A stretch of DNA of 64,000 bases from Candidatus Eiseniibacteriota bacterium (GTDB lineage Bacteria > Eisenbacteria > RBG-16-71-46): the NCBI GenBank assembly GCA_033853925.1, contig JAWOLC010000011.1, forward strand, positions 978 to 64,977, written 5' to 3'. This document shows positions 5,601 to 20,906 of this stretch, piece by piece. The notes under the pieces are model-generated. The model did no database searches. It was not told the origin of the DNA and saw nothing but the letters and a program-made list of their open reading frames with translations. The translations under genes were made by a program, and so were the position numbers. Within the stretch, counting starts at the first letter, position 1; each line of letters begins with the position of its first letter.

Positions 5601-6100
5601 GTGCCGCTGAGCATCGGCCGGCGCCTCGGTCCCTACGAGGTCCTCGCTCCGCTCGGTGCCGGGGGCATGGGCGAGGTCTACCGCGCGCGCGACACCCGGC
5701 TCGGGCGCGAGGTGGCGGTCAAGGTGCTGCCCGAGCACCTCTCGGCCCACCCGGAGGTGCGGGCGCGCTTCGAGCGCGAGGCCAAGACGATCTCCAGCCT
5801 CAACCACCCGCACATCTGCGCGCTCTACGATGTCGGCCACGACGAAGGCGTGGACTACCTGGTGATGGAGCTGGTGGAGGGGGAGACGCTCGCCGAGCGG
5901 CTCAAGCGCGGCCGGCTGCCGGCGGAGCAGGTGCTTCGCCTGGGAGCCGAGATCGCGGACGCCCTGGACAGGGCGCACCGCTCGGGCATCGTCCATCGGG
6001 ACCTGAAGCCGGGCAACATCATGCTCGCGAAGGCGGGGGTGAAGCTGCTGGACTTCGGGCTGGCGCGCGCGGCGCTGTCCGCGGCGGCCTCGGTGGACCT
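5601..6100 (+). repeat. Direct repeat from tandem gene duplication: the kinase-domain coding region here is about 85-90% identical at the nucleotide level to 8243..8740 and, more weakly, to 10915..11400
   Basis: Visible by aligning ccgctcggtgccgggggcatgggcgaggtctaccgcgcgcgcgacacccggctcgggcgcgaggtggcggtcaaggtgctgcccgag with ccgctgggagccgggggcatgggcgaggtctaccgcgcgcgcgactcgcggctcgggcgcgacgtggcgatcaaggtgctgcccgag. Confidence 0.7.
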
Positions 6101-8246
6101 CTCCAGCACGCCGACGCTCACGCGACCTCTCACCACGGAAGGCACGATCGTCGGCACGTTCCAGTACATGGCGCCGGAGCAGCTCGAGGGCAAGGAAGTG
6201 GACGCCCGCGCCGACATCTGGGCGCTCGGCGCGGTGCTCTACGAGATGGCGACGGGGAAGAAGGCCTTCGAGGGGGCGAGCCAGGCGAGCCTGATCGGCG
6301 CCATCATGAACAAGGAGCCGGCCCCGGTCAGCTCGCTCACCCCCGAGCCGCCCGGGCTGGACCGGGTGGTGAGCCGCTGTTTGGCGAAGGACCCCGACGA
6401 GCGCTGGCAGACGGCGCGGGACGTGGGGCACGAGCTGCGCTGGATCGCCGGGCAGACCTCGCAGTCGGGCGCTCCGGCGGTGGTCGCGCCGCGACGGCGG
6501 CCCCGCGAGCCGCTGGCCTGGGCGATCGCCGGCGTGGCGGGGATCGCCGCGCTCTCCACTGGGATCGTGGACCTCGAGCGGCCGGCCGTGGAGCCCTCCA
6601 CCCTGCGCTTCAGCCTCGCGGTGGCCGGGGCCAAATCCATCGAGTGGCCGCGCATCTCGCCCGACGGTCGCACCCTGGCGTTCCAGGCGGCCGACTCGAC
6701 CGGGAAGATCATGATCTGGGTGCGGCCGCTCAACTCCCTCACCGCGGTCCCGCTCCCCGAGACGGAAGGCGCCGGGCGCCCCTTCTGGTCGCCGGACAGC
6801 CGCTTCCTCGGGTTCTTCATGGGCAATCAGCTCAAGAAGGTCCCCGTCGCCGGCGGACCGCCGCAGCTCATCTGCGACGTGCGCGGGGGCGCCGACGGCT
6901 CGTGGGGCAGCCGGGGCGTGATCGTCTTCGACGGCGCCCAGGGCGACTCGATCCGGCAGGTCTCGGCCGAGGGCGGTGAGGCGAGCGCGGCGACGACCCT
7001 GGCCCGCGCGCGCGGCGACCTCTATCACGCCTGGCCCTGCTTCCTGCCCGACGGCCGGCACTTCCTGTACCTGGCCTTCGGGAAGAGCCGCGAGGACACC
7101 CGGCTCGAAGCCGGCAGCCTGGGCTCGCCGAAGACGGTGGACCTGGGCCGGGTCCAGACCCGCGTGGACTACGCGCCCGAGGGCTACGTGCTCTTCGCCA
7201 GCGAGGGGACGCTGATGGCGCGCCCGTTCGACGCGCGTGCCCTCCGCTTCACCGGCGAGCCGTTCCCCGTGGCCGAGCGGGTTCGCTGCGCCCCCGGCGA
7301 CCGGGCCAACCTCTCCGTCTCGCGCACCGGCATCCTGGCCTTCATGCCCGGGGTCGCGGCCGCCAACCGCGAGCTGGTCTGGGTGGACCGGACGGGCAAG
7401 ACGTTGAGCACCGTCGGCGTGCACGCCGCCTACAACGACCCCGCTCTCTCGCCGGACGGCACGCGGCTGGCGTACAGCGTCACGGATCCCGAGTCGGGGA
7501 ACGACGACATCTGGGTGCGCGACCTCAAGCGCGACGTCGCCTCCAAGCTCACCTTCGATCCGGGCAACGAGATCTGGCCCGCGTGGTCGCCCGACGGCAG
7601 CCGCATCGCCTACGCCTCGGACGCTCGCGGCCCCTTCGCGCTGGTGCAGCGGCTGGCCAGCGGCGCGGGCGGCGTGGACACGCTCTACCATTCCCTGGGG
7701 AGCTCGGGCCCCAGCGACTGGTCGCGAGACGGACGCTGGCTCACCTTCATGAACTTCGACGCCGGGCACGCGGACCTCTGGGCGCTGTCCCTGTCCGGCG
7801 ACCATCGGGCGCAGCCCTTGCTCAAGTCCCAATTCACCACGCGCGACCCGGTGCTGTCTCCCGACGGCAAGTGGCTCGCCTACTTCTCCAACGAGTCCGG
7901 GCACATGGAGGTGTACGTCCAGCCCTTCCCCGGACCCGGCGGCAAGTGGCAGATCTCGACGAATGGCGGAGTCGAGCCGCGCTGGCGAGGGGACGGCAAG
8001 GAGCTGTACTACCTCACGCCGGACAACGAGCTCATGGCCGTGCCGGTGAGCGCCGGGGCCACGTTCGAGGCCGGGATCCCGGTCAAGCTCTTCGAGCACG
8101 CCCTGCCGCCCGGCCCCGGGACGCGCAACCGCTACGTGCCGACGGCCGACGGCAAGCGCTTCCTGCTCGTCGCTCCGGTGGAGAGCCCCGCCGCCGAGAC
8201 CTTCACCGTGGTCCTCGACTGGACCGCCGAGGCACGGAAGAGATGA
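5601..8246 (+). CDS. Ser/Thr protein kinase fused to TolB-like PD40 beta-propeller (paralog 1)
   Basis: GTG start. Hanks kinase motifs [41 protein letters not shown]. Then a TM segment and PD40 repeats ([50 protein letters not shown]). Confidence 0.9.
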
Positions 8247-10918
8247 GCCTCGCACCCGGCCGGCGCCTCGGCCCCTACGAGGTCCTCGCCCCGCTGGGAG
8301 CCGGGGGCATGGGCGAGGTCTACCGCGCGCGCGACTCGCGGCTCGGGCGCGACGTGGCGATCAAGGTGCTGCCCGAGGAGTTCGCGCACGATCCGGCTCG
8401 GCTCGCGCGCTTCGAGCGCGAGGCCAAGGCGATCTCCAGCCTCAACCACCCGCACATCTGCGTCCTCTTCGACGTCGGGCGGGAGAACGGCACCGGCTAC
8501 CTGGTGATGGAGCTGGTGGAGGGGGAGACCCTGGCCCAGCGGCTCGAGCGCGGGCCCCTGCCCGCGGCGGAGGTCGTGCGGCTCGGCGTCCAGATCGCGG
8601 ACGCGCTCGAGCGCGCGCACGCCTCGGGGATCGTGCACCGCGATCTGAAGCCGGGCAACATCATGCTCACGAGGTCGGGGGCGAAGCTCCTGGACTTCGG
8701 CCTGGCGCGGCCGGCCGGCCTCGGCGCCGCCGGGAACGACACGAGCACGCCCACCCAGGCGCGGGCGCTCACGAGCGACGGGGCGATCGTCGGCACCTTC
8801 CAGTACATGGCGCCCGAGCAGCTCGAGGGCCGCGAGGCGGACGCTCGCAGCGACCTCTGGGCTCTGGGCTGCGTGTTGTACGAGGCGGCGACGGGGAAGC
8901 GGGCCTTCGAGGGCACGACGCAGGCGAGCCTCGTGGGCGCGGTCATGCGGGACCAGCCGAGGCCCATCGCGGAGCTGGCGCCTCTGGCGCCGCCGGGCCT
9001 GGAGCGCGTGGTGACCGCTTGCCTGGCGAAGGACCCGGCCGACCGCCTGCAGAGCGCGCACGACGCGAAGCTCCAGCTCCAGTGGATCGCCGAGGGCGGG
9101 TCGCAGGCCGGGGTGCCGGCGGCGAGGGCCGCGCGGCGCCGCAGCCGCGAGCGGTACGCCTGGGCGCTGGCGGGGCTCTTCGCCCTGCTCGCCGCGGGAT
9201 CCGCCGCGCCGCGGCTGTGGAGCCGCCCCGCCGCGCCGCGGAGCGCGCATGTGTCGGTCCTGCCCCCCGAGGACGCCATCATCGACGACGAGATGATGCA
9301 CACGGCGATTTCCACGGACGGCGGGTCGGTCGCCTTCGTGGCCACGGATGCCAGCGGCACGTCGCAGCTCTGGGTGCGGGAGTTGGCTTCGCCCCAGGCG
9401 CGGCCCCTGCCGGGCACGGAAGCCGCCACCCTGCCGTTCTGGTCGCCCGACAGCCGCTGGATCGGCTTCTTCGCCGAGGGGAAGCTCAAGAAGGTGGACG
9501 TGGCGGGGCGCAACGTGGAGATCCTCTGCGACGCGCCCGACGGCCGCGGCGGGACGTGGGGGCGCCGGAAGACGATCGTCTTCGCGCCGGCCTCGGCGGG
9601 CCCGCTGGAGAAGGTGTCCGAGGACGGCGGGCAGCCCGTGCCGGTGACGCGGCTGGACGCGAAGCGCGGCGAAGAGGCGCATCGCTTCCCCTCGTTCCTG
9701 CCGGACGGCCGGCGCTTCCTGTACGTGGCGCTGGCCCCGGGGATCAGGCTCGTGACGCGCCTCGGCTCCCTCGACTCGTGGACGGCGGATTCCCTGGTGA
9801 GCGCGGACGGCGCGGCGATCTACGCCGCGCCCGGCTACCTCATCTTCTCGCGCAACGAAGCGTTGCTCGCCCAGCGCCTGGACGAGGGAGGCCGCCGGCT
9901 GACGGGCGAGCCCTTCGCCCTGGGGCCCGCTCCTCGCGGCCTGAGCCTCTACTCGGGGGCGCCCGACGCGTCCGTCTCCGCCAACGGCGTCCTGGTCCAG
10001 CGCCATCGCGCCCCGCGCCGCTCCCGGCTCGCCTGGATGGACCGGGAAGGCCGCGTGCTCGAGACCTTGCCCACGCCGGCGGCCGAGTACGACACGCCCG
10101 TGCTCTCTCCGGACGCGCGCCACGTGGCCATCGGGCGCACCTCGCCGGAGACCATCAAGGACCTCTGGGTCGTGGATCTCGGGAGCGGCGTGGCGAGCAA
10201 GCTGACGACCGATCGCCTCTACGCCGAGAGCCCGGTCTGGTCGCCGGACGGCCGCACGATCGCCTTCTCGTCCCTGGTCGGTGGCGACCGCGTGATCTTC
10301 ACGCGGCTGGCGAGCGGCGCCGGCGACGTGACCCCGCTCGTCCGCCTCGACGGCCCCTTCAACGATCCCGCCTGCTGGTCCGCCGACGGCCGCGAGATCT
10401 TCCTGCGCCGCCTGGATCCGCAGACCGGCGAGGACGTCTGGGTCCTGCCCCTGGAGGGCGGGCGCAGGCCCTATCCGCTGCTCCACAGCCCCTATCACGA
10501 GGAGGACCCGAGCCTGTCGCCCGACTGTCGCTGGCTGGCCTTCCGCTCGAACGAGTCGGGGCGCACGGAGCTGTACGTGCAGTCCTTCCCCGTGCCGGAC
10601 GCCAAGCTGAGGATCTCCACCGACGGCGCGGGGACCTCGCCGCGCTCGGGCTCGGGCCAGCCCTTCTGGCGGAAGGACGGCCGGGAGCTTCTCTACCTGG
10701 CCGGGGACGGCGTCACCATGATGTCCGTGCCGATCGAGACGGCTGGCGGCTTCCACGCCGGGACCCCGCGAGCGCTCTTCCGCGTCCCGGCCGACTGCAA
10801 CGCGATCGTGGCCACCCCCGACGCGCAGCGCTTCCTGGTACTGCGCGAAGAGAGCAGCAAGGAGGGGACCTCGGTCCAAGTGGTTCTGAACTGGCCGGCG
10901 GAGCTGAGGCAGCGATGA
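8243..10918 (+). CDS. Ser/Thr protein kinase fused to TolB-like PD40 beta-propeller (paralog 2)
   Basis: ATG at 8243 overlaps the upstream stop as ATGA. The kinase domain is about 80% identical to paralog 1. PD40 repeats follow. The first 660 nt of the listed ORF (from 7583) are an out-of-frame overlap with paralog 1. Confidence 0.9.
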
Positions 10919-13485
10919 CGCTCGTTCCTGGCAGGCGGCTCGGTCCCTACGAGATTCTCGGTCCGCTCGGCGCGGGCGGCATGGGCGAGGTGTGGCGCGC
11001 GCGCGACTCCCGGCTCGGGCGGGACGTGGCGATCAAGGTGTTACCCGACGAGTTCGCGCACGATCCCGCGCGACGCTCGCGCTTCGAGCGCGAGGCCAAG
11101 GCGATCGCGGCGCTCTCGCACCCGAACGTCCTCGCCCTGCACGACTTCGGCGCGGACGACGGGGCGATCTACGCGGTGATGGAGCTGCTCGAGGGCACGA
11201 CCCTGCGCGAGCGGCTGGCCGGCGGCCCGCTCTCCCCGCGCAAGGCGGTCGACTACGCGATCCAGATCGCGCACGGGCTCGCGGGGGCGCACGAGAGAGG
11301 CATCGTCCATCGCGACCTCAAGCCCGAGAACGTGCTCGTCACCCCGGACGGGCGGGTCAAGATCCTCGACTTCGGCCTGGCCCGGCTGGATCCCTACCAG
11401 AGCGACGGCGACACGCAGACGCCGACGCTCGCGGGCGCCACCCGCCCGGGGGCGGTCCTGGGCACGGTCGGCTACATGGCGCCCGAGCAGGTGCGGGGCG
11501 AGACGGCCGACGCCCGCGCGGACATCTTCTCCCTCGGGGCGCTTCTCTACGAGATGCTCTACGGCCGCCGGGCCTTCCAGCGTGACACGGCTGCCGAGAC
11601 CATGACGGCGATCCTGCGCGAGGATCCGCCGCCCCCACCCGCCGACACGAAGGTTCCCCCGGCCCTGGACCGCGTCGTGCGGGGCTGCCTGGAGAAGGCC
11701 CCCGGAGAGCGCTTCCGCTCGGCGCACGACCTGGCCTTCGCCCTGGAGATGGCCCTCGGCTCCAGCACCTCGCAGGCTGCGGCCGTGGCCGCGGCGAAGC
11801 CGCGGCGCGGCTCCCGCCTGCTGCTCGCGGGCGGCGTCGCGGTTCTCGTCCTGCTCGTGGCCGGGGCGCTCCTCGCCGGCGCGGCCCGCCGGTCCCGGCC
11901 CCTCTTCTATCGCCAGCTGACCTCCGAGCGGGGCAGCGTGGTCTCGGCGCGCTTCTCGCCCGACGGTCAGACCGTGGTGTACGGCGCCGCCTGGGTCGGC
12001 CACCCGCTCGAGCTGTTCTCCACCCGCACCGACGGCTTCGAGTCCCGCTCGCTCGAGCTGCCCTCCGGAGACATTCAGTCCATCTCCCGGACGGGCGACA
12101 TGCTCCTCCTCTCGGGGCGACGGAATCTCCAGAGCTGGATGGCCGTGGGAACGCTTGCCCGGGCCTCGTTCTCGGGGGGTGGGCAGCGGGACATCCTGGA
12201 CGGGGCCAGCGCCGCGGATCTCTCCCCCGATGGGGGGAAGACCGCGGTCGTGCATCGGGTCGGGGGCATGGATCAGCTGGAGTGCCCGCCGGGAACGCCC
12301 CTCTACCGGACCCTGGGCTGGATCGGGACGCCGCGCTTCAGCCCGAACGGCCAGCGCCTCGCCTTCATCGAGCATCCGCTGTTCGGCGACGATCGCGGCT
12401 ACCTCATGGTCGTGGACCTCGGCGGCGGCCGGCCGGCGCGGCTCACGGACGAGTACTCGAGCTTCCAGGGCCTCGCCTGGGCGGGCGGGGGCCGCGAGCT
12501 GTGGTTCACCGCCACGGCCGACAGCGACGCCTATTTCACGCTCTACGCCACCTCCGGCTCGCGCCGGACCCGAGTCGTGCTCTCGGCGCCCGTGGACCTC
12601 GTCATCCAGGACGTCAGCCCACGCGGCGTCGCCCTGCTCTCCGCGAACCAGAGCACGGGCGAGATCGCCGGGCGCTTCCCCGGGCAGGAGAGCGACCGGC
12701 TCGTGGACTTCTACGCCCAGTCCTCCACCGGCGGCCTGTCGGCTGACGGTCGCACGCTGGCGGTCACCTACGCCGGCGCGGGCAGCGGCTTCGACTACTC
12801 GGTGTGGATCATCCGTGCGGACGGCTCGCCCGCGGAGCACGTGGGCGAGGGCGCGGCGCGCGCGATCTCTCCCGACGGGAAGTGGGTGGTCACCACCTTC
12901 GCCTCGGCCCCGAGCCGACTGGAGCTGCTCTCGACGGGCACCGAGGCGTCGAGGAGCTTCGACCTCGGCGGCATCGCCCCGACGGTCAACATCGGCACGC
13001 CCATCACCTGGACCCGCGACGGCTCGGCCTTCCTCTTCACCGGGCGGACGGCGAAGAGCGGGACCCGCTCCTATCTCTTCCGCGTCGCCAAGGGCTCGGC
13101 CCGGCCGGTGACCCCCGAGAACACGAGCGACGCCCTCCTCTCGCCCGACGGGAGCGAGGTGCTGGCCCGCGACGCCGCGGGCTTCGCCCTGTGGCCGCTC
13201 GCGGGCGGCGAGCCGCGCAGGGTGCCCGCCCTGCGCGACGACGACATCCCCTTGCAGTGGGAGGCCTCGGGTGGGTCGGTCTTCGTCTGGAACGGCAGCT
13301 TCCCGGCGCACGTCGAGCGGCTGGACCTGGACACGGGTCGTCGCTCGCCGTGGACCACCATCACGCCGCCCGATCCCTCGGGCGTGCTCTACGGGAACCT
13401 GCTCCTCACCCCCGACGGGAAGTCCTACGTCTACCGCTACCGCCGCTGGCTCTCGAATCTCTTCGTCGTGAGGGGATTGCACTGA
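10915..13485 (+). CDS. Ser/Thr protein kinase fused to TolB-like PD40 beta-propeller (paralog 3, more divergent)
   Basis: ATG at 10915 overlaps the upstream stop (ATGA). Motifs [40 protein letters not shown] segment follows ([22 protein letters not shown]), then PD40-like repeats. Confidence 0.9.
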
Positions 13486-13600: not shown

Positions 13601-14965
13601 ATGCGCTCTCACCTGCTCGCGGTCTGGTTGCTCGCGCTCGCCGGCGGCCTGGCGGCCGCCCCTTCGCCGGCGGCCGCGGTCCCGGCACCCTCCGCCTCCC
13701 TGCGGATGGTCCTTCCCTTCCTCTCCGACGATTACACCAAGGCGCTCGCCGAGGCGCGGGCGCGCCAGGTGCCGCTCTTCATCGAAGCCTGGGCGCCCTG
13801 GTGACACACCTGCCGGTCGATGAGGGCCTACGTCTTCACGGACTCGACCCTCACGCGGCACGCCGGACGGTTCGTCTGGCTCGAGCTGGACACGGAGAAG
13901 GCGAAGAACGCGGCCCTGAAGAAGAAGCTGGGGGTGGCGGCCCTGCCCACTTATTTCGTCCTGGACCCGGCGGACGAGAAGGTGCCCTTGCGCTGGACGG
14001 GTGCCTTCACCGTCGCCCAGCTGGATCGCCTGCTGGATGACGGCTCCGCCGCGGTGAGCGGCCGCCGGGGCACGGGGCTCGCGGACGCCGCGCTGGCCCG
14101 GGCCGACAGCGCCAACGGCGCCGGCGACTACGCCGGCGCGGCGACCGCCTATCGCCAGGCGCTGGCGGCCGCGCCCGCCGGTTGGCCGCCGTACGCTCGC
14201 GCGGTGGACGCGGCGCTGTTCGCGCTCTCGAGCGCCGAGAGCAACGAGGCGGCGGCGCGGCTGGCGCGCGACGCGTTCCCGCGGCTGGCGAGCACACCCT
14301 CGGCCGCCAGCGTGGCCGCGAGCGGGCTGGAGGCGGCGCTCGGACTGCCGCGGTCCCACCCGCAGCGCCGGGAGCTGATCGGGGCCATGGAGGCCGACGC
14401 GCGCGCCGTCCTCGCCGACAGCACCCTGGCGATCGCGGCCGACGACCGCTCCGGCCTCTACATCGATCTCATCAGCGCGCGCAAGGACGTGGTGGACCTG
14501 GGCGGCGCCCACGCGCTGGCGTTGGCCTGGGCGGCATTCCTCGAGCGCCAGGCGGCCGCGGCTCGCACGCCCGAGCAGCGCACGGTCTTCGATTCGCACC
14601 GGCTCTCCGCCTATCTGGAGCTGGGAACTCCGGAGAAGGCGATCCCCATGTTGCAGGCCTCCGAGCGCGACCTGCCCGACGACTACAACCCGCCGGCGCG
14701 CCTGGCGGTGACGTACCTGGCGCTGAAGCGCTGGGACGACGCGCTGGCGGCGTCGGATCGCGCGCTGGCCCGCGCGTACGGCCCGCGCAAGCTCGCGCTC
14801 CTCGCGACCCGCGCCGACATCTACGCGGGGAAGGGCGACGCGCCGGCGGCGCGCAAGACGCTCGAGGAGGCGATCGCGCTCGCGACCTCGCTGCCGCCCG
14901 GCCAGCAGTCCGAGAGCACCCTCGCGTCGCTCAAGCGGAAGCTCGACGCGATCAAGCCGTCCTGA
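13601..14965 (+). CDS. Exported thioredoxin-fold (Thioredoxin_7-like) protein with C-terminal TPR-like domain. It carries an in-frame TGA at 13802-13804 exactly at the first position of the CxxC motif, making it a candidate selenoprotein (UxxC)
   Basis: The ORFs 13601..13804 and 13820..14965 are in the same frame (219 nt apart). The 15 nt between them also read open (HTCRS). Read-through gives a signal peptide followed by ...VPLFIEAWAPW-[TGA]-HTCRSMRAYVFTDSTLTRHAGRFVWLELDTEKAKNAALKKKLGVAALPTYFVLDP... This is a complete thioredoxin fold with W-x-x-C and a cis-Pro PTYFVLD loop, followed by about 300 aa of TPR-like helices. Confidence 0.7.
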
Positions 14966-16055
14966 CGCCGCCGAACAGGTGCATCCAGAGGAAGTCCACC
15001 GCGGCATGGGTGAGCGCCGAGGCGGTCGCCCGGCGCGTGCGCATCCACACCCATCCGTACGCGAGCCCCGCCAGCGTGGCGAGCAGGGCGTAACGCAGGT
15101 CGGGTCGCGGCGGCTCGTCCAGATGCGCCGCGCCGAAGACGAGCGAGGCGAGAGCCAGGGCGGCCGCCCGCCCGCCGCGGCCCGGCCAGGAGCGCTCGAG
15201 GAAGTTCTGGATCAGGCCGCGGAAGAGCACCTCCTCCGGGCAGGCGACGCCCAGGTAGATCGCCAGCGCGCTCACCGCCCGCTCGAGCGGGCCCAGGTGC
15301 GGCCCGCCCGGGCGGATGAAGCCGCTGGCGAGGCCGAGAGGGATGGCCAGCGCGGCGAAGGCCGCGAGGCCGACCGCGGCGTGAGCGAGGTCCCGGCGGC
15401 TCAAGGCGAAGGTGTAGCCCACCCGGGGCACGTGCGCCTGGACCACGAAGACCAGCAAGCCGAGAGCGAAGAGCGCGAGGTGCGTGGCGTCGAAGGCCTG
15501 CGCGGCGCCGGCGGGAAGGCGCAGGCCGCCCACGAGCCGGAACTCCGCGGGCAGCCAGAAGACGAGCAGCGCGGCGAGGAAGGGGAGCCGGGCGGGAAAC
15601 GCGGGCGGGCCTGGCCGGCTCGGATCCGCGAGGGGGACGGCGGACGCGGGGCGCAGCCCCCCGCCGACGACGATCACGGCGATGCCGTAGACGGCGAGCC
15701 GGAGCAGCTCCGCGGGCACGAGCGCGTGGCACGCCGCCGCGTAGCCCGCGTAGGCGAGCAGCGCTAGGATCCACAGCCCCCCCGAGCGCAGCCGGGGCGC
15801 AGGCGCCAGCCAGGCGCGCAGGCCGGCGCGCCAGGGGCGAACCGAGAGCAGGACGCAGGGGATGAAGAAGAGCGCGAAGGCGGCGCCAGCGGCCGCCGCG
15901 GCCGCGGCTCCGGCGCCGCTTCGCCGGGCGAAGAGCGCGAAGGCGCCGAGCCCCGACGCGGCGAGCGCCAGGGCGATGGCGGCCTCGCGAGGCGCGCGCG
16001 ACCCCGGTGCCTGGGCTGCGCTCGAGCCCGTGGGGTTCGTGGCGCTCGTGCTCAT
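14952..16055 (-). CDS. CPBP-family intramembrane metalloprotease (CAAX protease/bacteriocin-processing type)
   Basis: All three CPBP motifs in the C-terminal half: EEVLFRG (EExxxR), FGAAHL (FxxxH) and HAAVDF (HxxxD). Multiple TM helices. Start taken at the only in-frame ATG (MSTSATN, 16053-16055). The upstream part of the listed ORF is junk. Start position is uncertain. Confidence 0.65.
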   Translation of the reverse strand: MSTSATNPTGSSAAQAPGSRAPREAAIALALAASGLGAFALFARRSGAGAAAAAAAGAAFALFFIPCVLLSVRPWRAGLRAWLAPAPRLRSGGLWILALLAYAGYAAACHALVPAELLRLAVYGIAVIVVGGGLRPASAVPLADPSRPGPPAFPARLPFLAALLVFWLPAEFRLVGGLRLPAGAAQAFDATHLALFALGLLVFVVQAHVPRVGYTFALSRRDLAHAAVGLAAFAALAIPLGLASGFIRPGGPHLGPLERAVSALAIYLGVACPEEVLFRGLIQNFLERSWPGRGGRAAALALASLVFGAAHLDEPPRPDLRYALLATLAGLAYGWVWMRTRRATASALTHAAVDFLWMHLFGGVRTA

Positions 16056-16635
16056 GTTCGAGTGGCTCGTGGCTCCGCGCGCGCCGGCGCCGGTCGTCGT
16101 CGCGGCGCTGGCGCTCCTCGCTCTGCTCCCGGTGGGCTCGAGCCGGCTGCACGGAGACGGGCTCCGGGATCTGGGCTTCCGCCGGGACAACCTCGCCCGC
16201 GCGGCCCGGGAGGCCGGGCTGGCCACCGCCTCCCTGGCCGTGGTCGTGCTCGTCCTCAGCGCGCTCTCGCGGAACGGGCTTCACCTGCGACCCGGGATCG
16301 CGCTGGCCCTCGCGGGCTATCCCTTCTGGGGGCTGGCGCAGCAGTATACGCTCCAGGGGTTCGCCTATCGCCGGCTGCGGGCGGGCCTCGGCTCCGCGCG
16401 CGCGGCGGCGCTCGTCGCCGCGCTTCTCTTCGGCGCCGTCCACTTCCCCAACCCGGCGCTCCTCGTGAGCACCGCGCTCGCGGGCTACGTGTGGTGCCGG
16501 CTCTACGAGCGTGAGCCGAACCTCTACGCGCTGGCGCTCTCGCACGCGTTGCTGGCGGCGCTCCTCCTCGCGGCGCTGCCCCGCGGGTGGCTCCATACGC
16601 TGCGCGTGGGGCCGGGCTACTGGCTGCACCTCTGA
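15862..16635 (+). CDS. CPBP-like membrane protein with degenerate catalytic motifs (possible inactive paralog)
   Basis: TM helices plus FGAVHF (FxxxH). The EExxxR position reads QQYTLQG and the third motif reads HALLA (no N/D). MKKSAKA looks like a genuine N-terminus. An alternative ATG at 16054 overlaps the minus-strand start codon. The 5' end is ambiguous. Confidence 0.45.
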   Translation: MKKSAKAAPAAAAAAAPAPLRRAKSAKAPSPDAASARAMAASRGARDPGAWAALEPVGFVALVLMFEWLVAPRAPAPVVVAALALLALLPVGSSRLHGDGLRDLGFRRDNLARAAREAGLATASLAVVVLVLSALSRNGLHLRPGIALALAGYPFWGLAQQYTLQGFAYRRLRAGLGSARAAALVAALLFGAVHFPNPALLVSTALAGYVWCRLYEREPNLYALALSHALLAALLLAALPRGWLHTLRVGPGYWLHL

Positions 16636-17990: not shown

Positions 17991-18913
17991 GTGGACACGT
18001 TCATCGCCCGGCAACCGATCCTGGACCGTGAGCTCGGCGTCTACGCCTACGAGCTTCTCTTTCGCACTGGGTTCAAGGAGTACTTCGACTGCGCGGACCG
18101 CGACCATGCCTCGTCGCGCGTGATCGCGGACAGCCTGTTCCTTCCCCGCCTCGACGCGATCGCGCGCGGCCGACCTGCCTTCATCAACATCACCCGCGAC
18201 GTGCTCGTGCGCAATCTGATCGAGGTCCTGCCCCCGGCCACGACGGTGGCCGAGATCACCGAGGACGTGGAGCCGGGCCGGGAGGTGCTCTCGGCCTGCC
18301 AGCGTCTGCACGACAGGGGCTACAGGCTGGCCCTCGACGACTTCAAAGCGGCTCGCGCCGGGACTCGTGGCTCGAGCGCGTGGACATCGTCAAGGTGGAC
18401 ATGCTGCCCACCCGGGCGCCGTTCCGCGCCGCGCTGGCTCGCCGGGTCCGGGCCGGCGGGCCGCTCCTGCTGGCCGAGAAGGTGGAGTCGCAGAAGGTCT
18501 ATCGCGACGCCCATGGGCTGGGGTTCGGCCTCTTCCAGGGCTTCTTCTTCGAGCGGCCGACGGTGGTGCCCGGGCGCGACATCCCCGCCTCGCGCCTGCA
18601 CCGGATCGAGCTGCTGCGCGAGATCCACAAGCCCGGCCTGGACTTCGCCGCCATCGCCGAGATCATCGAGCGTGAGGTCGGCCTCTCCTGCAAGCTCATG
18701 CGCTACCTCAACTCGGCCTTCTTCGGCTGGCGAGGTCCGGTCTCCTCGATCCACCACGCCCTGATGCTGCTCGGCGAGTCGGACTGGGCGGCCGTCTCGG
18801 CGCTGGCGGCGCGGCTGGCCGTGGACGAGGGGAGCGTGCCGGACCTCTACGTCGAGGCCCTGGAGTGGCTCGACGAGGGCGCCCCGTTCCTGGCCGGCAA
18901 CCGCGCCGCGTAG
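17991..18913 (+). pseudogene. EAL-HDOD (YuxH-type) c-di-GMP signalling protein interrupted by a +1/-1 frameshift near 18345-18348. It is either a pseudogene or a sequencing error at an A-run
   Basis: GTG start at 17991 with GAGGGGA upstream. N-terminus (V)DTFIARQPILDRELGVYAYELLFR, EITE motif and ...RLALDDF in frame A. The continuation ...DSWLERVDIVKVDMLP..., the EAL C-terminus and the HDOD domain (LMRYLNSAFFG..., HHALMLLGESDW) run to 18913 in frame B. The switch sits at ttcAAAgcg (18343-18350). Confidence 0.6.
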
Positions 18914-18957
18914 CGCAGGGCGGGCGGCTGGCTCCTCGCGGCTTCCCCCGCGGAGGC

Positions 18958-19881
18958 TCACCAGCCGCCGGCGCTCGGGGGCGCGAGCCGAGGAGCGGCC
19001 CGCGCGGCCACGACGATCCCCGCGAGGATGAGGAGGGCGCCGGCCAGCTCGAGCGCGCTCGGGATCTCGCGCAGCACGACCCAGGCCAGCGCCGTGGAGC
19101 CCACGGGCTCACCCAGCAGAACGATCGCCACGAAGGAGGCGGGCAGATAGCGCAGCGCCCAGTTGAAGCTGGAGTGACCGAGGAGCTGGGGCACGAGCGC
19201 GAGCAGGACGAGCCACACCCAGACTCGGGGCGGGAGGCTGGAGAAGCTCAGGCCGGAGAGGGCCATGAGGAGGAGGAGCACCAGGGCCGCCATGCCGTAC
19301 ACCACGAAGACGTAGGGCACGAGCGTGAGGGCTCCGCGCAGGCGGCGCCCCACGAGCAGGTAGCCGGTCATCATCCACGCGCCCGAGAGCGCGAGGAGGT
19401 CGCCCAGCCAGGCGCCGCCCCGGCCGTGAGCGAGGCCGCTCGCCGCCCGGCCGCCGCCCGTGCCGACGATGACGCCGCCCGCCAGGGCGATCAGGATGCC
19501 GATCGCGGCCGCGCGCGTCAGGGGCTCGCGCAGGACGACCGGAGCCAGCAGCGCCACCCAGAGAGGCGTGGTCGTGACCAGCACCACCGAGCTGGCCACC
19601 GTCGTGCGCTCGAGCGAGGCGATCCACAGGGCGAAGTGAAGGGCGAGAAAGAGGCCGGCCGCCAGCGCCAGCAACAGGTCGCGAGCGCGCAGCCGGGCGA
19701 GCGCGGGGCGGTCGCGGGTGAGCGCCAGCGGCGCGAGCGCCACGGTGGCGAGCGCGAGCCGGCCGGCGGCGATCGTGAGCGAGGGGGCGTCGTGCTGGGC
19801 GAAGCGGACGAAGATGGAGGCGGTCGAGACGGCCAGGATGCCGAGGGCCAGCACGGGCAGCGAGAGCCGACGCGGGTCCAC
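18958..19881 (-). CDS. EamA/DMT-family transporter (10 TM)
   Basis: Two EamA-like halves; strongly hydrophobic throughout. Confidence 0.8.
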   Translation of the reverse strand: MDPRRLSLPVLALGILAVSTASIFVRFAQHDAPSLTIAAGRLALATVALAPLALTRDRPALARLRARDLLLALAAGLFLALHFALWIASLERTTVASSVVLVTTTPLWVALLAPVVLREPLTRAAAIGILIALAGGVIVGTGGGRAASGLAHGRGGAWLGDLLALSGAWMMTGYLLVGRRLRGALTLVPYVFVVYGMAALVLLLLMALSGLSFSSLPPRVWVWLVLLALVPQLLGHSSFNWALRYLPASFVAIVLLGEPVGSTALAWVVLREIPSALELAGALLILAGIVVAARAAPRLAPPSAGGW

Positions 19882-20234
19882 GCCTCACCTCAGCAGCGAA
19901 TCGCGCAGCGCCGGCCAGAGGCAGGGATGGTCGCACCGCCTCGCCCAGCCGAAGTCGCCCGCGTGCGCGGGCGCGAGCTCCCGGGAGGGAAGCGGGCCGC
20001 GCGCGGGCTCGACGCCGGCGAGGCGGCGAAGCGAGACCCTGTGCGGGCGGCGGGGTGTCACCCGCGGATTATCGGCGATTTGCCCGGGCCGAGAAAGCGA
20101 GCGGGCCGCGCCCGTGCGCACCGCGTGGGCGCGCGAGGGCCGGTCCGCGCCGGCTCGCGCGCCCTCGAGGGCGGATGTACGATGCCTGCCGTTTCCCGCA
20201 CGCTTCTCGTCTTCGCCGCATGGGAGGGCCTCGG

Positions 20235-20906
20235 ATGAAGCGGATCCTGGTTCCGGCCGCGCTCGTCGGACTCGCGATCTACGTCCTCGCCGGCTGCGCC
20301 GGCCGGAAGACGGAGCCCGAGCGGTCGAGCGGCTCGTCGGGCATCGCCAGCGCTCACGGCTCCATGGGCGCCGGCCTCGACACCTCGGGCTCGCCGCGCG
20401 CCGGGACCCCCGCGTCCCCTTCGATCCAGGCGCAGACGGGAGGCTCACCCACGGCGGCCGCCGGCTTGCGCTGGCGTCTGCCCGCGCGCTGGATCGTCCA
20501 GCCCGACCGGCCCATGCGCGTGGCGACCTACGCGATCGCGCCCGTGCGCGGCGACTCGGGGGGCGCCGAGTGCGCCGTCTACTATTTCGGCCCCCACCAA
20601 GGCGGTGACGTGGACGCCAACTTCCAGCGCTGGACCCAGCAGTTCCAGCCCGCGACCGCGTCGCGGCGCTCGAGCCGGCGGGTGAGCGGTCTCGAGGTGA
20701 GCCTGCTCCAGGTGAGCGGCACGTACACGGCGCCCGGCGGACCGATGATGCAGTCGCAGGGGAGCAAGACGGGCTGGCGCCTGCTCGGGGCGATCGTGGG
20801 CGGGCCGCAGGGGTCCGTGTTCTTCAAGCTCACCGGCCCCGAGAAGACGGTGGCGATGGCCGCGTCGAGCTTCGACGAGCTGATCGGCTCGCTGCGCAGG
20901 GAGTGA
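20235..20906 (+). CDS. Lipoprotein of unknown function
   Basis: Start MKRILVPAALVGLAIYVLAGC (lipobox LAGC) preceded by GGGAGG. The 60 codons upstream in the listed ORF are junk. Confidence 0.7.
   Translation: MKRILVPAALVGLAIYVLAGCAGRKTEPERSSGSSGIASAHGSMGAGLDTSGSPRAGTPASPSIQAQTGGSPTAAAGLRWRLPARWIVQPDRPMRVATYAIAPVRGDSGGAECAVYYFGPHQGGDVDANFQRWTQQFQPATASRRSSRRVSGLEVSLLQVSGTYTAPGGPMMQSQGSKTGWRLLGAIVGGPQGSVFFKLTGPEKTVAMAASSFDELIGSLRRE

What the first reader, a model, noticed from the sequence alone, without database searches (positions are those of the whole stretch)
13601..14965. In-frame TGA exactly at the CxxC position of an exported thioredoxin-fold/TPR protein: candidate selenoprotein (UxxC)
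Two ORFs (13601..13804 and 13820..14965) are in the same frame. The 15 nt between them are open, and the only interruption is the TGA at 13802-13804. Read-through gives ...VPLFIEAWAPW-[TGA]-HTCRSMRAYVFTDS...GVAALPTYFVLDP..., a textbook Thioredoxin_7-type fold in which the TGA occupies the first redox Cys of W-C-x-x-C. A chance stop landing precisely on the catalytic Cys codon of an otherwise intact, signal-peptide-bearing redox protein is unlikely. Cys-to-Sec in CxxC thioredoxin-like proteins is an established class of bacterial selenoproteins. A possible SECIS-like hairpin begins about 13 nt downstream (GAUGAGGGCC-UACGUCUUCACGGACUC-GACCCUC, with an apical GUC/GAC mini-stem and a G-containing loop about 30 nt from the UGA). 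The periplasmic Trx-TPR architecture resembles a secreted chaperedoxin.
Basis: partly seen in the sequence, partly recalled or inferred. Interest (0 to 1): 0.8.

Follow-up and report, generated by a model that had tools for sequence, protein, structure and literature searches.

The report
Exported thioredoxin-TPR selenoprotein, distant SECIS hairpin
The "stop" inside this gene is almost certainly a selenocysteine codon at the active site of a secreted redox protein that databases routinely cut in half, and the RNA hairpin that appears to direct the recoding lies unusually far downstream.

Summary
Window 13601-14965 is one reading frame, interrupted only by TGA at 13802-13804. The TGA sits at the first Cys of the W-C-H-T-C motif of a Thioredoxin_7 domain, which is followed by a TPR superhelix.

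It is not a decayed gene. Of the 80 closest species-level genomes (51-79% protein identity), 74 have TGA at exactly this codon and 6 have TGC or TGT. Full-length database homologues have Cys there. Sec and Cys forms are interleaved in a tree (at least 13 switches).

One TGA-form genome has a tRNA-Sec 8 kb away. Another has a known PDO selenoprotein gene nearby.

It is a 7-bp hairpin with loop [G/A]GUU[C/U] at 13862-13880. It is fully paired in 71 of 72 distinct Sec sequences against 4 of 53 Cys sequences. Its synonymous sites are nearly frozen in Sec forms only.

It fits the published bacterial SECIS model except for spacing: 64 nt from UGA to loop, against 16-37.

No selA, selB or selD lies in the window. 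The family is missing from NCBIfam and from a 2026 selenoprotein inventory. It is a new member of a known class, with an atypical SECIS.

The parts
13601..14965 (+). Complete selenoprotein gene (454 codons including Sec67, plus the stop): signal peptide, Thioredoxin_7 domain with a U-H-T-C active site, and a TPR superhelix. Its own terminator is also TGA (14963-14965).
   Evidence: Translation. Pfam. Cys-containing full-length homologues. TGA conserved in 74/80 genomes.
13601..13678 (+). Predicted Sec-type signal peptide (MRSHLLAVWLLALAGGLAAAPSPAAA | VP). It has no lipobox Cys. The cleavage site is inferred from the A-x-A rule.
   Evidence: Read from the sequence. Homologues have comparable hydrophobic N-termini. 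In the AF2 model of orthologue P0004, residues 1-42 have low confidence and no structure. No signal-peptide predictor was run.
13802..13804 (+). UGA read as selenocysteine (residue 67), the N-terminal attacking position of the U-x-x-C redox motif.
   Evidence: Aligned with Cys in full-length homologues. TGA in 74/80 loci, TGC/TGT in 6. At least 13 Sec/Cys switches on an NJ tree.
13811..13813 (+). TGC, the resolving Cys (residue 70) of U-H-T-C.
   Evidence: Present in every Sec and Cys form retrieved. Both retrievals required this Cys, so its invariance was not independently tested.
13727..14035 (+). Thioredoxin-fold domain (Thioredoxin_7 / DsbD-gamma-like), including the invariant cis-Pro loop (ALPT, Pro116 at 13946-13948).
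   Evidence: Pfam PF13899, PF13098 and PF00085. PDB profile hits 2kuc and DsbD-gamma. Foldseek 1vrs and 1uc7, TM 0.73-0.77. P116 invariant.
14078..14962 (+). All-alpha TPR superhelix of about 300 aa, with family-specific invariant motifs (AADDRSG, FDSHRLSAY, DYNPPARLA, AYGPRKL).
   Evidence: Pfam TPR_12 and TPR_19. AF2 model of orthologue P0004, pLDDT 89.5. Foldseek hits to LGN, OGT and consensus TPR structures. Invariant columns.
13862..13880 (+). Hairpin 2, the best candidate for the SelB-binding SECIS core: GCCGGAC-GGUUC-GUCUGGC. It has a 7-bp stem and a 5-nt loop at 13869-13873, with G13870 and U13871 invariant. There are 64 nt between the UGA and the loop.
   Evidence: RNAalifold. 99.8% of cells paired, with A-U, G-U and G-C at pair 66-74. 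7/7 pairs in 71/72 Sec against 4/53 Cys sequences, and MFE -12.8 against -7.1 kcal/mol. Third-position entropy 0.30 against 1.05 bits. It is the only hairpin of the published loop/stem type present in 72/72 Sec sequences.
13821..13853 (+). It is read here as a structured spacer or accessory stem between the UGA and hairpin 2.
   Evidence: Mean base-pair probabilities 0.4-0.7 across Sec forms. 81.6% and 87.2% of cells paired, with a few compensatory changes. More stable in Sec than in Cys forms, -16.9 against -11.8 kcal/mol. Synonymous constraint is only modest, ratio 0.76. The single-sequence fold is not significant.
13810..13861 (+). Possible outer helix P0 (13810-13816 pairing with 13855-13861) that encloses hairpin 1. 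It is weaker in the window itself, with 5 of 7 pairs.
   Evidence: Mean pair probabilities 0.4-0.66. 80.4% of cells paired, and pair 9-60 shows GC in 32 and CG in 8 sequences.

Best explanation
Window 13601-14965 is a single intact gene for an exported selenoprotein. It has an N-terminal signal peptide, a DsbD-gamma/Thioredoxin_7-type thioredoxin fold whose active site is W-U-H-T-C, and a C-terminal TPR superhelix of about 300 residues. Selenocysteine is encoded by UGA 13802-13804.

Shown: the UGA is conserved at this codon across many divergent genomes and alternates with Cys. The mRNA just downstream carries structure that is under selection only when the codon is UGA.

Inferred mechanism of decoding: SelB carrying Sec-tRNA(Sec) binds the 7-bp hairpin at 13862-13880, whose loop [G/A]GUU[C/U] has an invariant GU. 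It then delivers Sec to the UGA. The intervening stem-loop (13821-13853) folds back on itself. The path from UGA to the loop is then about 31 unpaired or stem nucleotides rather than the 64 in linear sequence.

Inferred function: after export, the selenolate of U67 attacks disulfides or sulfenic acids on envelope client proteins recruited by the TPR domain. C70 then resolves the mixed selenosulfide. The protein would therefore act as a thiol-disulfide reductase or isomerase.

My confidence in each step is: selenoprotein about 0.93, hairpin 2 as the SECIS core about 0.7, and reductase/isomerase with TPR-bound clients about 0.5.
For: One frame, with a Thioredoxin_7 domain spanning the TGA. Cys aligns with the TGA in about 30 full-length homologues among the top 120 hits. 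The other 90 are calls of 376-410 aa that start at the internal Met.

Relatives are encoded in 513 species genomes. In the best 80, TGA occurs 74 times, TGC 5 times and TGT once at this codon, with conserved protein sequence in frame on both sides. Sec and Cys forms are interleaved, with at least 13 changes by parsimony. The contrasts below are therefore replicated and not one clade effect.

Hairpin 2 is fully paired in 71/72 Sec against 4/53 Cys sequences. Codon choices are GCC 70/72, GGA 53/72 and GTC 71/72 in Sec forms, against mixed usage in Cys forms that encode the same AG[RQ]FVWL peptide. Third-position entropy over 61-81 is 0.30 against 1.05 bits, while the flanks are equal. One compensatory G-C occurs at pair 66-74.

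Hairpin 2 meets the published bSECIS criteria for loop size, stem length, G in the first two loop positions and MFE (PMC13188914).

tRNA-Sec lies 8 kb from a TGA-form gene in L051 (ARAGORN; Rfam RF01852 at 71 bits). A second selenoprotein gene, TIGR02187 at 274 bits, lies near the TGA-form gene in L032.

The gene's own stop is TGA, so UGA is not globally reassigned.

The AF2 model of a 65%-identical Cys orthologue shows a Trx fold plus a TPR solenoid (pLDDT 89.5). The nearest solved relatives are DsbD-gamma and 2kuc.
Against: No selA, selB, selD or tRNA-Sec lies in the 64-kb window. The rest of the source genome could not be searched, so Sec machinery is shown only for a related genome.

The hairpin-to-UGA spacing of 64 nt violates the 16-37 nt rule of the consensus bacterial SECIS model. 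It also departs from the roughly 20 nt to the conserved loop G quoted in PMC4605307. SelB binding to hairpin 2 is an inference.

Hairpin 2 varies too little to give much covariation: 3 of 7 pairs never vary. Its support comes mainly from the Sec-versus-Cys contrast.

There is no protein-level evidence for Sec. Substrates, redox direction and the role of the TPR domain are untested. No conserved gene neighbours give a functional hint. The signal peptide was judged by eye only.
Confidence: 0.85

Rival explanations
1. This is a selenoprotein, but the functional SECIS is the canonically spaced hairpin 1 (13819-13853). Hairpin 2 would then be an accessory element, for example stabilising the fold, slowing the ribosome or raising efficiency, and not the SelB-binding site.
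For: Hairpin 1 lies where the consensus model expects a SECIS, with its apical region 27-31 nt from the UGA. It is more stable in Sec than in Cys forms (-16.9 against -11.8 kcal/mol, p = 6e-12). It shows some compensatory changes (24-48 CG x4). In L032 another selenoprotein gene of the same genome has a hairpin at a spacing of 17 nt, so that organism's SelB can work at canonical distance.
Against: No hairpin with G in the first two loop positions and a stem of at least 4 bp is conserved at spacing 16-37. The best candidates occur in at most 52 of 72 sequences, with stem energies from -0.5 to -2.5 kcal/mol, against the model's threshold of -7.5 or lower. The predicted apical loop is UCAC. The pairing register shifts between sequences. 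Synonymous constraint is weak, ratio 0.76 against 0.28 for hairpin 2. G31 and U32 are fixed by the Val codon in Cys forms too.
Confidence: 0.2
2. This is a split or decaying gene. On this reading the TGA is a real stop, so a 67-aa secreted peptide and a separate 381-aa TPR protein starting at Met73 (13820) would be made, or nothing functional at all.
For: Gene callers annotate the 379-381-aa ORF as a separate gene in most databases. No Sec machinery is in the window.
Against: The same TGA is kept in 74 of 80 genomes at 51-79% protein identity, with in-frame conservation of the upstream half of the thioredoxin fold. The 'start' Met is invariant in Cys forms too, so it is an internal residue. 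An RNA structure is selected only in TGA forms. tRNA-Sec and another selenoprotein gene occur in related TGA-form genomes.
Confidence: 0.02
3. The UGA is decoded by something other than SelB and Sec. Candidates are stop-codon reassignment (UGA to Trp or Gly), near-cognate readthrough inserting Cys or Trp, or a sequencing error for TGC/TGT.
For: UGA followed by C is a weak termination context (established knowledge). TGA differs from TGC/TGT by one base.
Against: The gene ends in TGA, and TGA closes ORFs throughout the window, so there is no reassignment. The aligned residue in homologues is always Cys, never Trp or Gly. 74 independent assemblies share the TGA. A downstream hairpin specific to the Sec forms has no role in simple readthrough.
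Confidence: 0.03

Closest known systems
[quoted passage not shown]
   Same: In-frame UGA at the N-terminal Cys position of a CxxC motif in a thioredoxin fold. Many Cys-containing homologues exist. A stem-loop lies downstream within the coding region.
   Different: The domain architecture (signal peptide + Thioredoxin_7 + roughly 300-aa TPR superhelix) is not in that inventory, where 'TPR' and 'tetratricopeptide' occur 0 times. No NCBIfam model reaches its cutoff. The conserved hairpin is 64 nt from the UGA to its loop, not 16-37.
Trx7/PDZ domain-containing (seleno)protein, NCBIfam NF041199
   Same: A Thioredoxin_7-type domain that carries Sec and is fused to a protein-binding module.
   Different: The score is only 12.6 bits against a cutoff of 300. 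The listed motif is CxxU, whereas here it is UxxC. The partner domain is PDZ, not TPR. This gene is not a member.
DsbD gamma domain and 2kuc-type periplasmic thioredoxin-like proteins
   Same: These are the closest solved structures to the thioredoxin domain. The profile search gives 2kuc at 8e-15 and DsbD-gamma at 4e-10. Foldseek gives TM 0.73-0.77 at rmsd 2.2-2.9 A. They are also extracytoplasmic and have a W-C-x-x-C active site with a cis-Pro loop.
   Different: DsbD-gamma is the C-terminal domain of a membrane electron transporter and uses Cys. This protein is soluble or secreted, carries a TPR domain and uses Sec. No DsbD-beta-like or CcdA-like partner is encoded next to it.
CnoX (YbbN) chaperedoxin: thioredoxin domain + TPR domain
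   Same: The two-module idea of a thioredoxin fold plus a TPR client-binding domain. JGI labels several full-length homologues 'thioredoxin-like negative regulator of GroEL', the COG name for YbbN.
   Different: CnoX is cytoplasmic (established knowledge), whereas this protein has a signal peptide. No CnoX structure was among the top 50 Foldseek matches or the top 60 PDB profile matches. The TPR domain here is much longer. This is an analogy of design, not shown homology.
Consensus bacterial SECIS (bSECISearch model; E. coli fdhF type)
   Same: [quoted passage not shown] It lies inside the ORF downstream of the UGA. PMC4605307 describes a 6-8 bp stem with a conserved loop G.
   Different: The spacing between UGA and apical loop is 64 nt, against 16-37, and about 20 nt to the loop G in the classical cases. 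A second, less constrained stem-loop fills the gap.

Membership tests
Bacterial selenoprotein gene (SelB/SECIS-dependent UGA recoding) | In-frame UGA aligned with Cys in homologues, in a redox-active position | tested here: met
   APW-[TGA]-HTC aligns with APW-C-HTC in full-length homologues. Thioredoxin_7 spans the site.
Bacterial selenoprotein gene (SelB/SECIS-dependent UGA recoding) | UGA conserved at the same codon in orthologues of other organisms, with coding conservation on both sides | tested here: met
   74/80 genome loci have TGA and 6 have TGC/TGT. The flanking peptide is conserved. Sec and Cys forms are interleaved in the tree.
Bacterial selenoprotein gene (SelB/SECIS-dependent UGA recoding) | Conserved stem-loop downstream of the UGA that is selected only in the UGA forms | tested here: met
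   Hairpin 13862-13880: 71/72 Sec against 4/53 Cys sequences fully paired. Synonymous-site entropy 0.30 against 1.05 bits.
Bacterial selenoprotein gene (SelB/SECIS-dependent UGA recoding) | selA, selB, selD and tRNA-Sec present in the same genome | not testable with these tools
In related TGA-form genomes, tRNA-Sec is found in L051 and a TIGR02187 selenoprotein gene in L032.
Bacterial selenoprotein gene (SelB/SECIS-dependent UGA recoding) | Selenium shown in the protein (75Se labelling or a Sec peptide by mass spectrometry) | not testable with these tools
   No experimental data are available.
Consensus bacterial SECIS (bSECISearch model, as given in PMC13188914) | Apical loop of 3-9 nt, upper stem of 4-16 bp | tested here: met
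   5-nt loop and 7-bp stem in 72/72 distinct Sec sequences.
Consensus bacterial SECIS (bSECISearch model, as given in PMC13188914) | G in one of the first two loop positions, usually followed by G or U | tested here: met
   The loop is GGUUC, AGUUC, AGUUU or GGUAC. The G at loop position 2 and the following U are invariant.
Consensus bacterial SECIS (bSECISearch model, as given in PMC13188914) | [quoted passage not shown] | tested here: not met
   The spacing is 64 nt. No conserved hairpin that fits the model exists at 16-37 nt.
Consensus bacterial SECIS (bSECISearch model, as given in PMC13188914) | MFE of -7.5 kcal/mol or lower | tested here: met
   Mean -12.8 kcal/mol for positions 58-82. 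The stem alone gives -10.9.
Pfam Thioredoxin_7 (PF13899) | Score above the gathering threshold | tested here: met
   42 bits against 27, E = 1.1e-10, with Cys substituted for Sec.
TPR superhelix | Pfam TPR model above threshold, and a repeated helix-turn-helix solenoid in the structure | tested here: met
   TPR_12 at 34.7 bits against 30.1. The AF2 model of orthologue P0004 shows an all-alpha repeat over residues 172-463. Top Foldseek hits are LGN, OGT and consensus TPR structures.
NCBIfam NF041199 Trx7/PDZ (seleno)protein | Score above the curated cutoff, and a CxxU motif | tested here: not met
   12.6 bits against 300. The motif here is UxxC.
NCBIfam NF045694 TsoB (rhodanese/DsbD fusion-like selenoprotein) | Score above the curated cutoff | tested here: not met
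   26.2 bits against 805, a local match to the DsbD-like thioredoxin part only.
CnoX/YbbN chaperedoxin | Homology of the Trx+TPR protein to CnoX, and a cytoplasmic location | tested here: inconclusive
   Only a COG-level label from JGI on some homologues. No CnoX chain is among the top PDB sequence or fold matches. A signal peptide is present here. No direct comparison with a CnoX sequence was made.

The most novel reading that the evidence does not exclude
This family uses a distinct class of bacterial SECIS. The SelB-binding hairpin (7-bp stem, RGUUY loop) begins 58 nt after the UGA, and its loop lies 64 nt after the UGA, about three times the classical distance. A folded spacer stem-loop brings it within reach of the ribosome. 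If so, bacterial Sec insertion is less tightly bound to 'immediately downstream' than the E. coli paradigm implies. Part of the roughly 13% of bacterial selenoprotein genes reported to lack a canonical SECIS (BSepDB, PMC13326102) could then be explained by distal or bipartite elements.
Probability: 0.5. Interest if true: 0.7.

Novelty: new member of a known kind. Interest (0 to 1): 0.55.

Why it matters
Annotation. This family is common in soil and sediment phyla (Candidatus Eisenbacteria, Acidobacteriota including Thermoanaerobaculia and Vicinamibacteria, Krumholzibacteriia). Relatives occur in 513 species genomes. Public annotations almost always record only the C-terminal five-sixths, as a 'TPR repeat protein' or a truncated 'thioredoxin family protein' (for example MBI5710135.1). 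They lose the signal peptide and the active site. Recognising the Sec codon restores a secreted redox enzyme.

Selenium biology. The gene adds an extracytoplasmic Sec oxidoreductase with a client-binding TPR domain to the selenoproteome of poorly studied, largely uncultured lineages.

Mechanism. The Sec/Cys contrast provides a natural experiment with many replicates. It points to a hairpin well outside the accepted UGA-SECIS spacing. That gives a concrete, testable example of the 'atypical bSECIS' that current predictors (bSECISearch, deep-Sep) are acknowledged to miss.

Tried and rejected
- Rfam at gathering thresholds over the whole window found nothing. A permissive scan of 13700-14000 gave only chance-level miRNA and lncRNA matches and no SECIS family.
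- ARAGORN found no tRNA in the window.
- tblastn with E. coli SelA, SelB and SelD sequences written from memory gave nothing below E = 0.09 against the window plus 133 loci (1.5 Mb). The machinery is therefore not near this gene in any locus.
- The look-up of encoding contigs for P0001, the window's own truncated product, returned no record. The source contig could not be extended.
A 65%-identical Cys orthologue was modelled instead.
- The afdb50 fold library was unavailable.
- Synteny: none of the window's neighbours (kinase-PD40, Rce1-like, abhydrolase) is conserved next to the gene elsewhere. No neighbour family occurs in more than 14 of 81 loci.
- RNAalifold's alternative pairing for the proximal region (16-41 ... 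26-31) is almost invariant and uninformative.
- Literature searches found no paper that mentions Eisenbacteria together with selenocysteine. No Trx+TPR selenoprotein appears in the two reviews, deep-Sep or BSepDB texts.
Full report
**1. The observation**

- An ATG at 13601 starts a reading frame that runs to 14965.
- The only interruption is TGA at 13802-13804.
- The product reads MRSHLLAVWLLALAGGLAAAPSPAAAVP...VPLFIEAWAPW-[TGA]-HTCRSMRAYVFTD...ALPTYFVLDP... and ends in a long alanine- and leucine-rich helical region.

With Cys placed at the stop, Pfam finds four thioredoxin-family or TPR models above threshold:
- Thioredoxin_7 across the interruption: aa 43-123, E = 1.1e-10, 42 bits against a cutoff of 27.
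- Thioredoxin_2 and Thioredoxin.
- TPR_12 at the C-terminus.

NCBIfam gives only sub-threshold local matches: the C-terminal part of DsbD, TsoB and Trx7/PDZ. A scan of the whole window for in-frame TGA codons with a coding-type GC3/GC2 signature on both sides returns this site only.

**2. It is a Sec/Cys family, not a decayed gene**

A protein search found 2743 relatives.
- Of the best 120, about 30 are full length (435-474 aa) and carry Thioredoxin_7.
- The other 90 are 376-410 aa and cover only 83-84% of the query.
- The full-length proteins read APW-C-HTCRSM, with Cys aligned to the window's TGA.
- The short ones all begin at the Met of CRS-M-RA, which is invariant in the full-length proteins as well. 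It is therefore an internal residue that gene callers have mistaken for a start.

A scan of one genome per species found relatives in 513 genomes, and I analysed the best 80.
- They come from Candidatus Eisenbacteria, Acidobacteriota (Thermoanaerobaculia, Vicinamibacteria, Holophagales) and Krumholzibacteriia, at 51-79% protein identity.
- At the codon aligned with 13802-13804, 74 have TGA, 5 have TGC and 1 has TGT.
- The peptide is conserved in frame on both sides.

On a neighbour-joining tree of 112 Sec and Cys forms the two states are interleaved. Parsimony requires at least 13 switches. Sequencing error, a recent pseudogene, or two separate genes cannot produce this pattern. The gene's own terminator is TGA, so UGA is not reassigned genome-wide.

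**3. Sec-decoding capacity**

The window holds no tRNA and no Rfam family. tblastn with E. coli SelA, SelB and SelD probes, written from memory and used only as leads, found no homologue in the window or in any of the 133 fetched loci.

Two related genomes give indirect support:
- In L051, an Acidobacteriota MAG, a tRNA-Sec with anticodon TCA lies 8 kb downstream of the TGA-form gene (ARAGORN; Rfam RF01852 at 71 bits against 47).
- In L032, a Krumholzibacteriia MAG, a second in-frame-TGA gene lies within 7 kb. It reads ...VFVTPT-U-PHCP... and scores 274 bits against a cutoff of 185 on TIGR02187 PDO_seleno_TRX, a recognised selenoprotein family.
- Acidobacteriota are also listed among Sec-utilising bacteria in PMC12013277.

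**4. The RNA signal**

I stacked the 90 nt from the TGA onward for the 75 Sec forms. The alignment is gapless. Positions below are numbered with the T of the TGA as 1.

As a control I retrieved 53 Cys forms from metagenomes with a pattern covering only the active site. Together with the six Cys forms from the genome scan, this gave 53 distinct Cys sequences.

RNAalifold predicts one hairpin in every Sec sequence:
- Columns 61-67 pair with columns 73-79, which is window 13862-13880.
- The sequence is GCCGGAC-GGUUC-GUCUGGC.
- 99.8% of its cells are paired. Pair 66-74 occurs as A-U (53), G-U (18) and G-C (1, changed on both sides).

The contrast with Cys forms is the decisive point.

| Measure | Sec forms | Cys forms |
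|---|---|---|
| All seven pairs formed | 71 of 72 distinct | 4 of 53 distinct |
| Local MFE, positions 58-82 | -12.8 kcal/mol | -7.1 kcal/mol (Mann-Whitney p = 2e-19) |
| Third-codon-position entropy, 61-81 | 0.30 bits | 1.05 bits |
| Third-position entropy, upstream flank (-84..0) | 1.01 bits | 1.06 bits |
| Third-position entropy, downstream flank (82-222) | 1.18 bits | 1.05 bits |

Both groups encode the same peptide, AG[RQ]FVWL, but their codons differ:
- Sec forms use GCC in 70 of 72, GGA in 53 of 72 (a rare codon at 73% GC) and GTC in 71 of 72.
- Cys forms mix GCG with GCC, mainly GGC with other codons, and GTC with GTG.

Because Sec and Cys forms alternate in the tree, this contrast is replicated many times. 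The few Cys forms that keep the hairpin (L012, L085, L086, L114) look like recent conversions.

**5. Comparison with the published SECIS model**

The consensus model, as given in PMC13188914, asks for four things:
- a 3-9 nt loop on a 4-16 bp stem;
- G in the first two loop positions, usually followed by G or U;
- 16-37 nt between the UGA and the loop;
- an MFE of -7.5 kcal/mol or lower.

Hairpin 2 satisfies all but the spacing. It has a 5-nt loop [G/A]GUU[C/U] with an invariant GU, a 7-bp stem, and a stem energy of -10.9 kcal/mol. Its spacing is 64 nt.

An explicit scan of all 72 distinct Sec sequences for hairpins of the model's type gave two results:
- This is the only stable one present in all of them. 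A second candidate, in 71 of 72, has a stem energy of +0.8 kcal/mol.
- Candidates at spacing 16-37 occur in at most 52 of 72 and have stem energies from -0.5 to -2.5 kcal/mol.

PMC4605307 puts the conserved loop G of classical SECIS elements about 20 nt from the UGA, on a 6-8 bp stem.

In L032 the neighbouring PDO selenoprotein gene has a model-conforming hairpin at spacing 17 (GCGGGC-CGUGUU-GCUCGC, -8.2 kcal/mol). That rests on a single sequence. If it holds, the same organism appears to use both spacings.

**6.

The region between the UGA and hairpin 2 is also structured. Averaged base-pair probabilities over the Sec forms give three helices:
- an outer helix, 9-15 with 54-60;
- a helix, 20-28 with 44-52;
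- an apical helix, 31-34 with 39-42, with loop UCAC.

The evidence that it is selected is real but moderate:
- 80-87% of its cells are paired, and there are a few compensatory changes.
- It is more stable in Sec than in Cys forms, -16.9 against -11.8 kcal/mol.
- Its synonymous-site constraint is weak, with a Sec/Cys entropy ratio of 0.76.
- Its pairing register shifts in some sequences.
- In the window alone it is no better than shuffled sequence.

My reading, which is an inference, is that it acts as a folded spacer. With the UGA in the A site, the first 12 to 15 nt or so are inside the ribosome. Hairpin 1 can stay folded at the mRNA entrance. The path to the hairpin 2 loop is then about 16 + 8 + 7 = 31 nt, back inside the model's range.

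The rival reading is that hairpin 1 is the SelB site and hairpin 2 is an accessory. It cannot be excluded without experiments. I give it about 0.2.

**7. The protein**

An AlphaFold2 model of the 65%-identical Cys orthologue P0004 is confident (pLDDT 89.5, pTM 0.85). It shows:
- a disordered N-terminus, residues 1-42, covering the signal peptide and a linker;
- a thioredoxin fold, residues 57-165;
- an all-alpha repeat domain, residues 172-463.

Structural and sequence comparisons place the two domains as follows:
- Foldseek matches the repeat domain to TPR superhelices such as LGN, OGT and designed consensus TPRs.
- Foldseek matches the thioredoxin domain to DsbD-gamma (1vrs, 1uc7; TM 0.73-0.77, rmsd 2.2-2.7 A) and to 2kuc.
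- A profile search of PDB sequences agrees: 2kuc at 8e-15 and DsbD-gamma at 4e-10.
- The cis-Pro of the thioredoxin fold (Pro116, ALPT) is invariant, and both groups carry Cys70. The retrieval required Cys70, so its invariance was not independently tested.

The N-terminus has the n-, h- and c-regions of a Sec-type signal peptide ending in AAA, and it has no lipobox Cys. I judged this by inspection only.

No gene neighbour is conserved. In the window the neighbours are a Ser/Thr kinase with PD40 repeats, Rce1-like proteases and an alpha/beta hydrolase.

The most likely function, again an inference, is an exported thiol-disulfide reductase or isomerase. Its selenolate at the attacking position would act on envelope proteins held by the TPR domain. 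The direction of electron flow and the reductant are unknown.

**8. What is known, and novelty**

Sec in place of the first Cys of CxxC in thioredoxin-fold proteins is a well-established class. [quoted passage not shown]

This architecture does not appear in the sources I could check:
- It is absent from that inventory, where the words TPR and tetratricopeptide do not occur.
- It is absent from the 2022 review and from the deep-Sep and BSepDB papers.
- No NCBIfam model claims it.
- No paper in the library mentions Eisenbacteria together with selenocysteine.

I could not query BSepDB itself, so prior listing under a generic 'thioredoxin-like' name cannot be excluded.

I therefore file it as a new member of a known kind. 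The less ordinary aspect is the distal, strongly constrained hairpin. BSepDB reports that 12.6% of bacterial selenoprotein entries lack a canonical SECIS. This family offers a clean, replicated example of what such elements may look like.

**9. Verdict**

- The selenoprotein interpretation is supported at about 0.93.
- The SECIS assignment is revised to 13862-13880, at about 0.7.
- The function as an exported, TPR-guided selenol oxidoreductase is plausible, at about 0.5.
- The main gap is that the Sec machinery could not be checked in the source genome.

Noticed in passing
L032, minus strand, TGA at locus coordinate 3368 (ORF about 3839-3140): A second in-frame-TGA gene lies about 7 kb from the Trx-TPR gene in a Krumholzibacteriia MAG. 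It reads ...EVFVTPT-U-PHCPRAV... and matches TIGR02187 PDO_seleno_TRX at 274 bits (cutoff 185). Its downstream hairpin GCGGGC-CGUGUU-GCUCGC has canonical spacing (17 nt, -8.2 kcal/mol), unlike the 64-nt spacing in the Trx-TPR gene of the same genome.
   Followed up: partly
L051 19441-19537 (+): A tRNA-Sec (anticodon TCA; Rfam RF01852 at 71 bits) lies 8 kb downstream of a TGA-form Trx-TPR gene in an Acidobacteriota MAG. It is flanked by an unannotated 317-aa ORF (18413-19366, minus strand) and an unannotated 266-aa ORF (19742-20542, plus strand). tblastn with E. coli SelA and SelB probes found no selA or selB in the locus.
   Followed up: partly
L012, L085, L086, L114 (Cys-form loci), the region equivalent to window 13862-13880: Four Cys forms keep all seven pairs of hairpin 2. 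L012 (TGT) is adjacent to Sec forms L009 and L003 in the NJ tip order. These look like recent Sec-to-Cys conversions that carry a 'fossil' SECIS.
   Followed up: partly
Database homologues P0001-P0120 (for example P0054 = MBI5710135.1): 90 of the top 120 protein records are calls of 376-410 aa that start at the internal Met just after the Sec codon. They are labelled 'TPR repeat protein' or 'thioredoxin family protein'. This is a systematic truncation across NCBI, JGI, ENA and Logan gene calls.
   Followed up: yes
window 5610-8246 (+) and 10918-13485 (+): Two paralogous genes upstream of the selenoprotein gene each encode a Ser/Thr protein kinase domain fused to PD40 (TolB-like beta-propeller) repeats. 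They are not conserved next to the Trx-TPR gene in other genomes.
   Followed up: partly
window 14952-16226 (-) and 15862-16635 (+): Two ORFs on opposite strands both match Rce1-like (CPBP/CAAX protease) and overlap by about 365 nt, so at least one start or call is probably wrong. The minus-strand ORF also overlaps the 3' end of the selenoprotein gene by 14 nt.
   Followed up: no
window 13805-13807 and the equivalent position in all 75 Sec-form sequences: The base after the UGA is always C (His codon CAC or CAT). UGA-C is regarded as a weak termination context. The same His is present in Cys forms, so the protein sequence explains the conservation and it may be only a fortunate side effect.
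   Followed up: no
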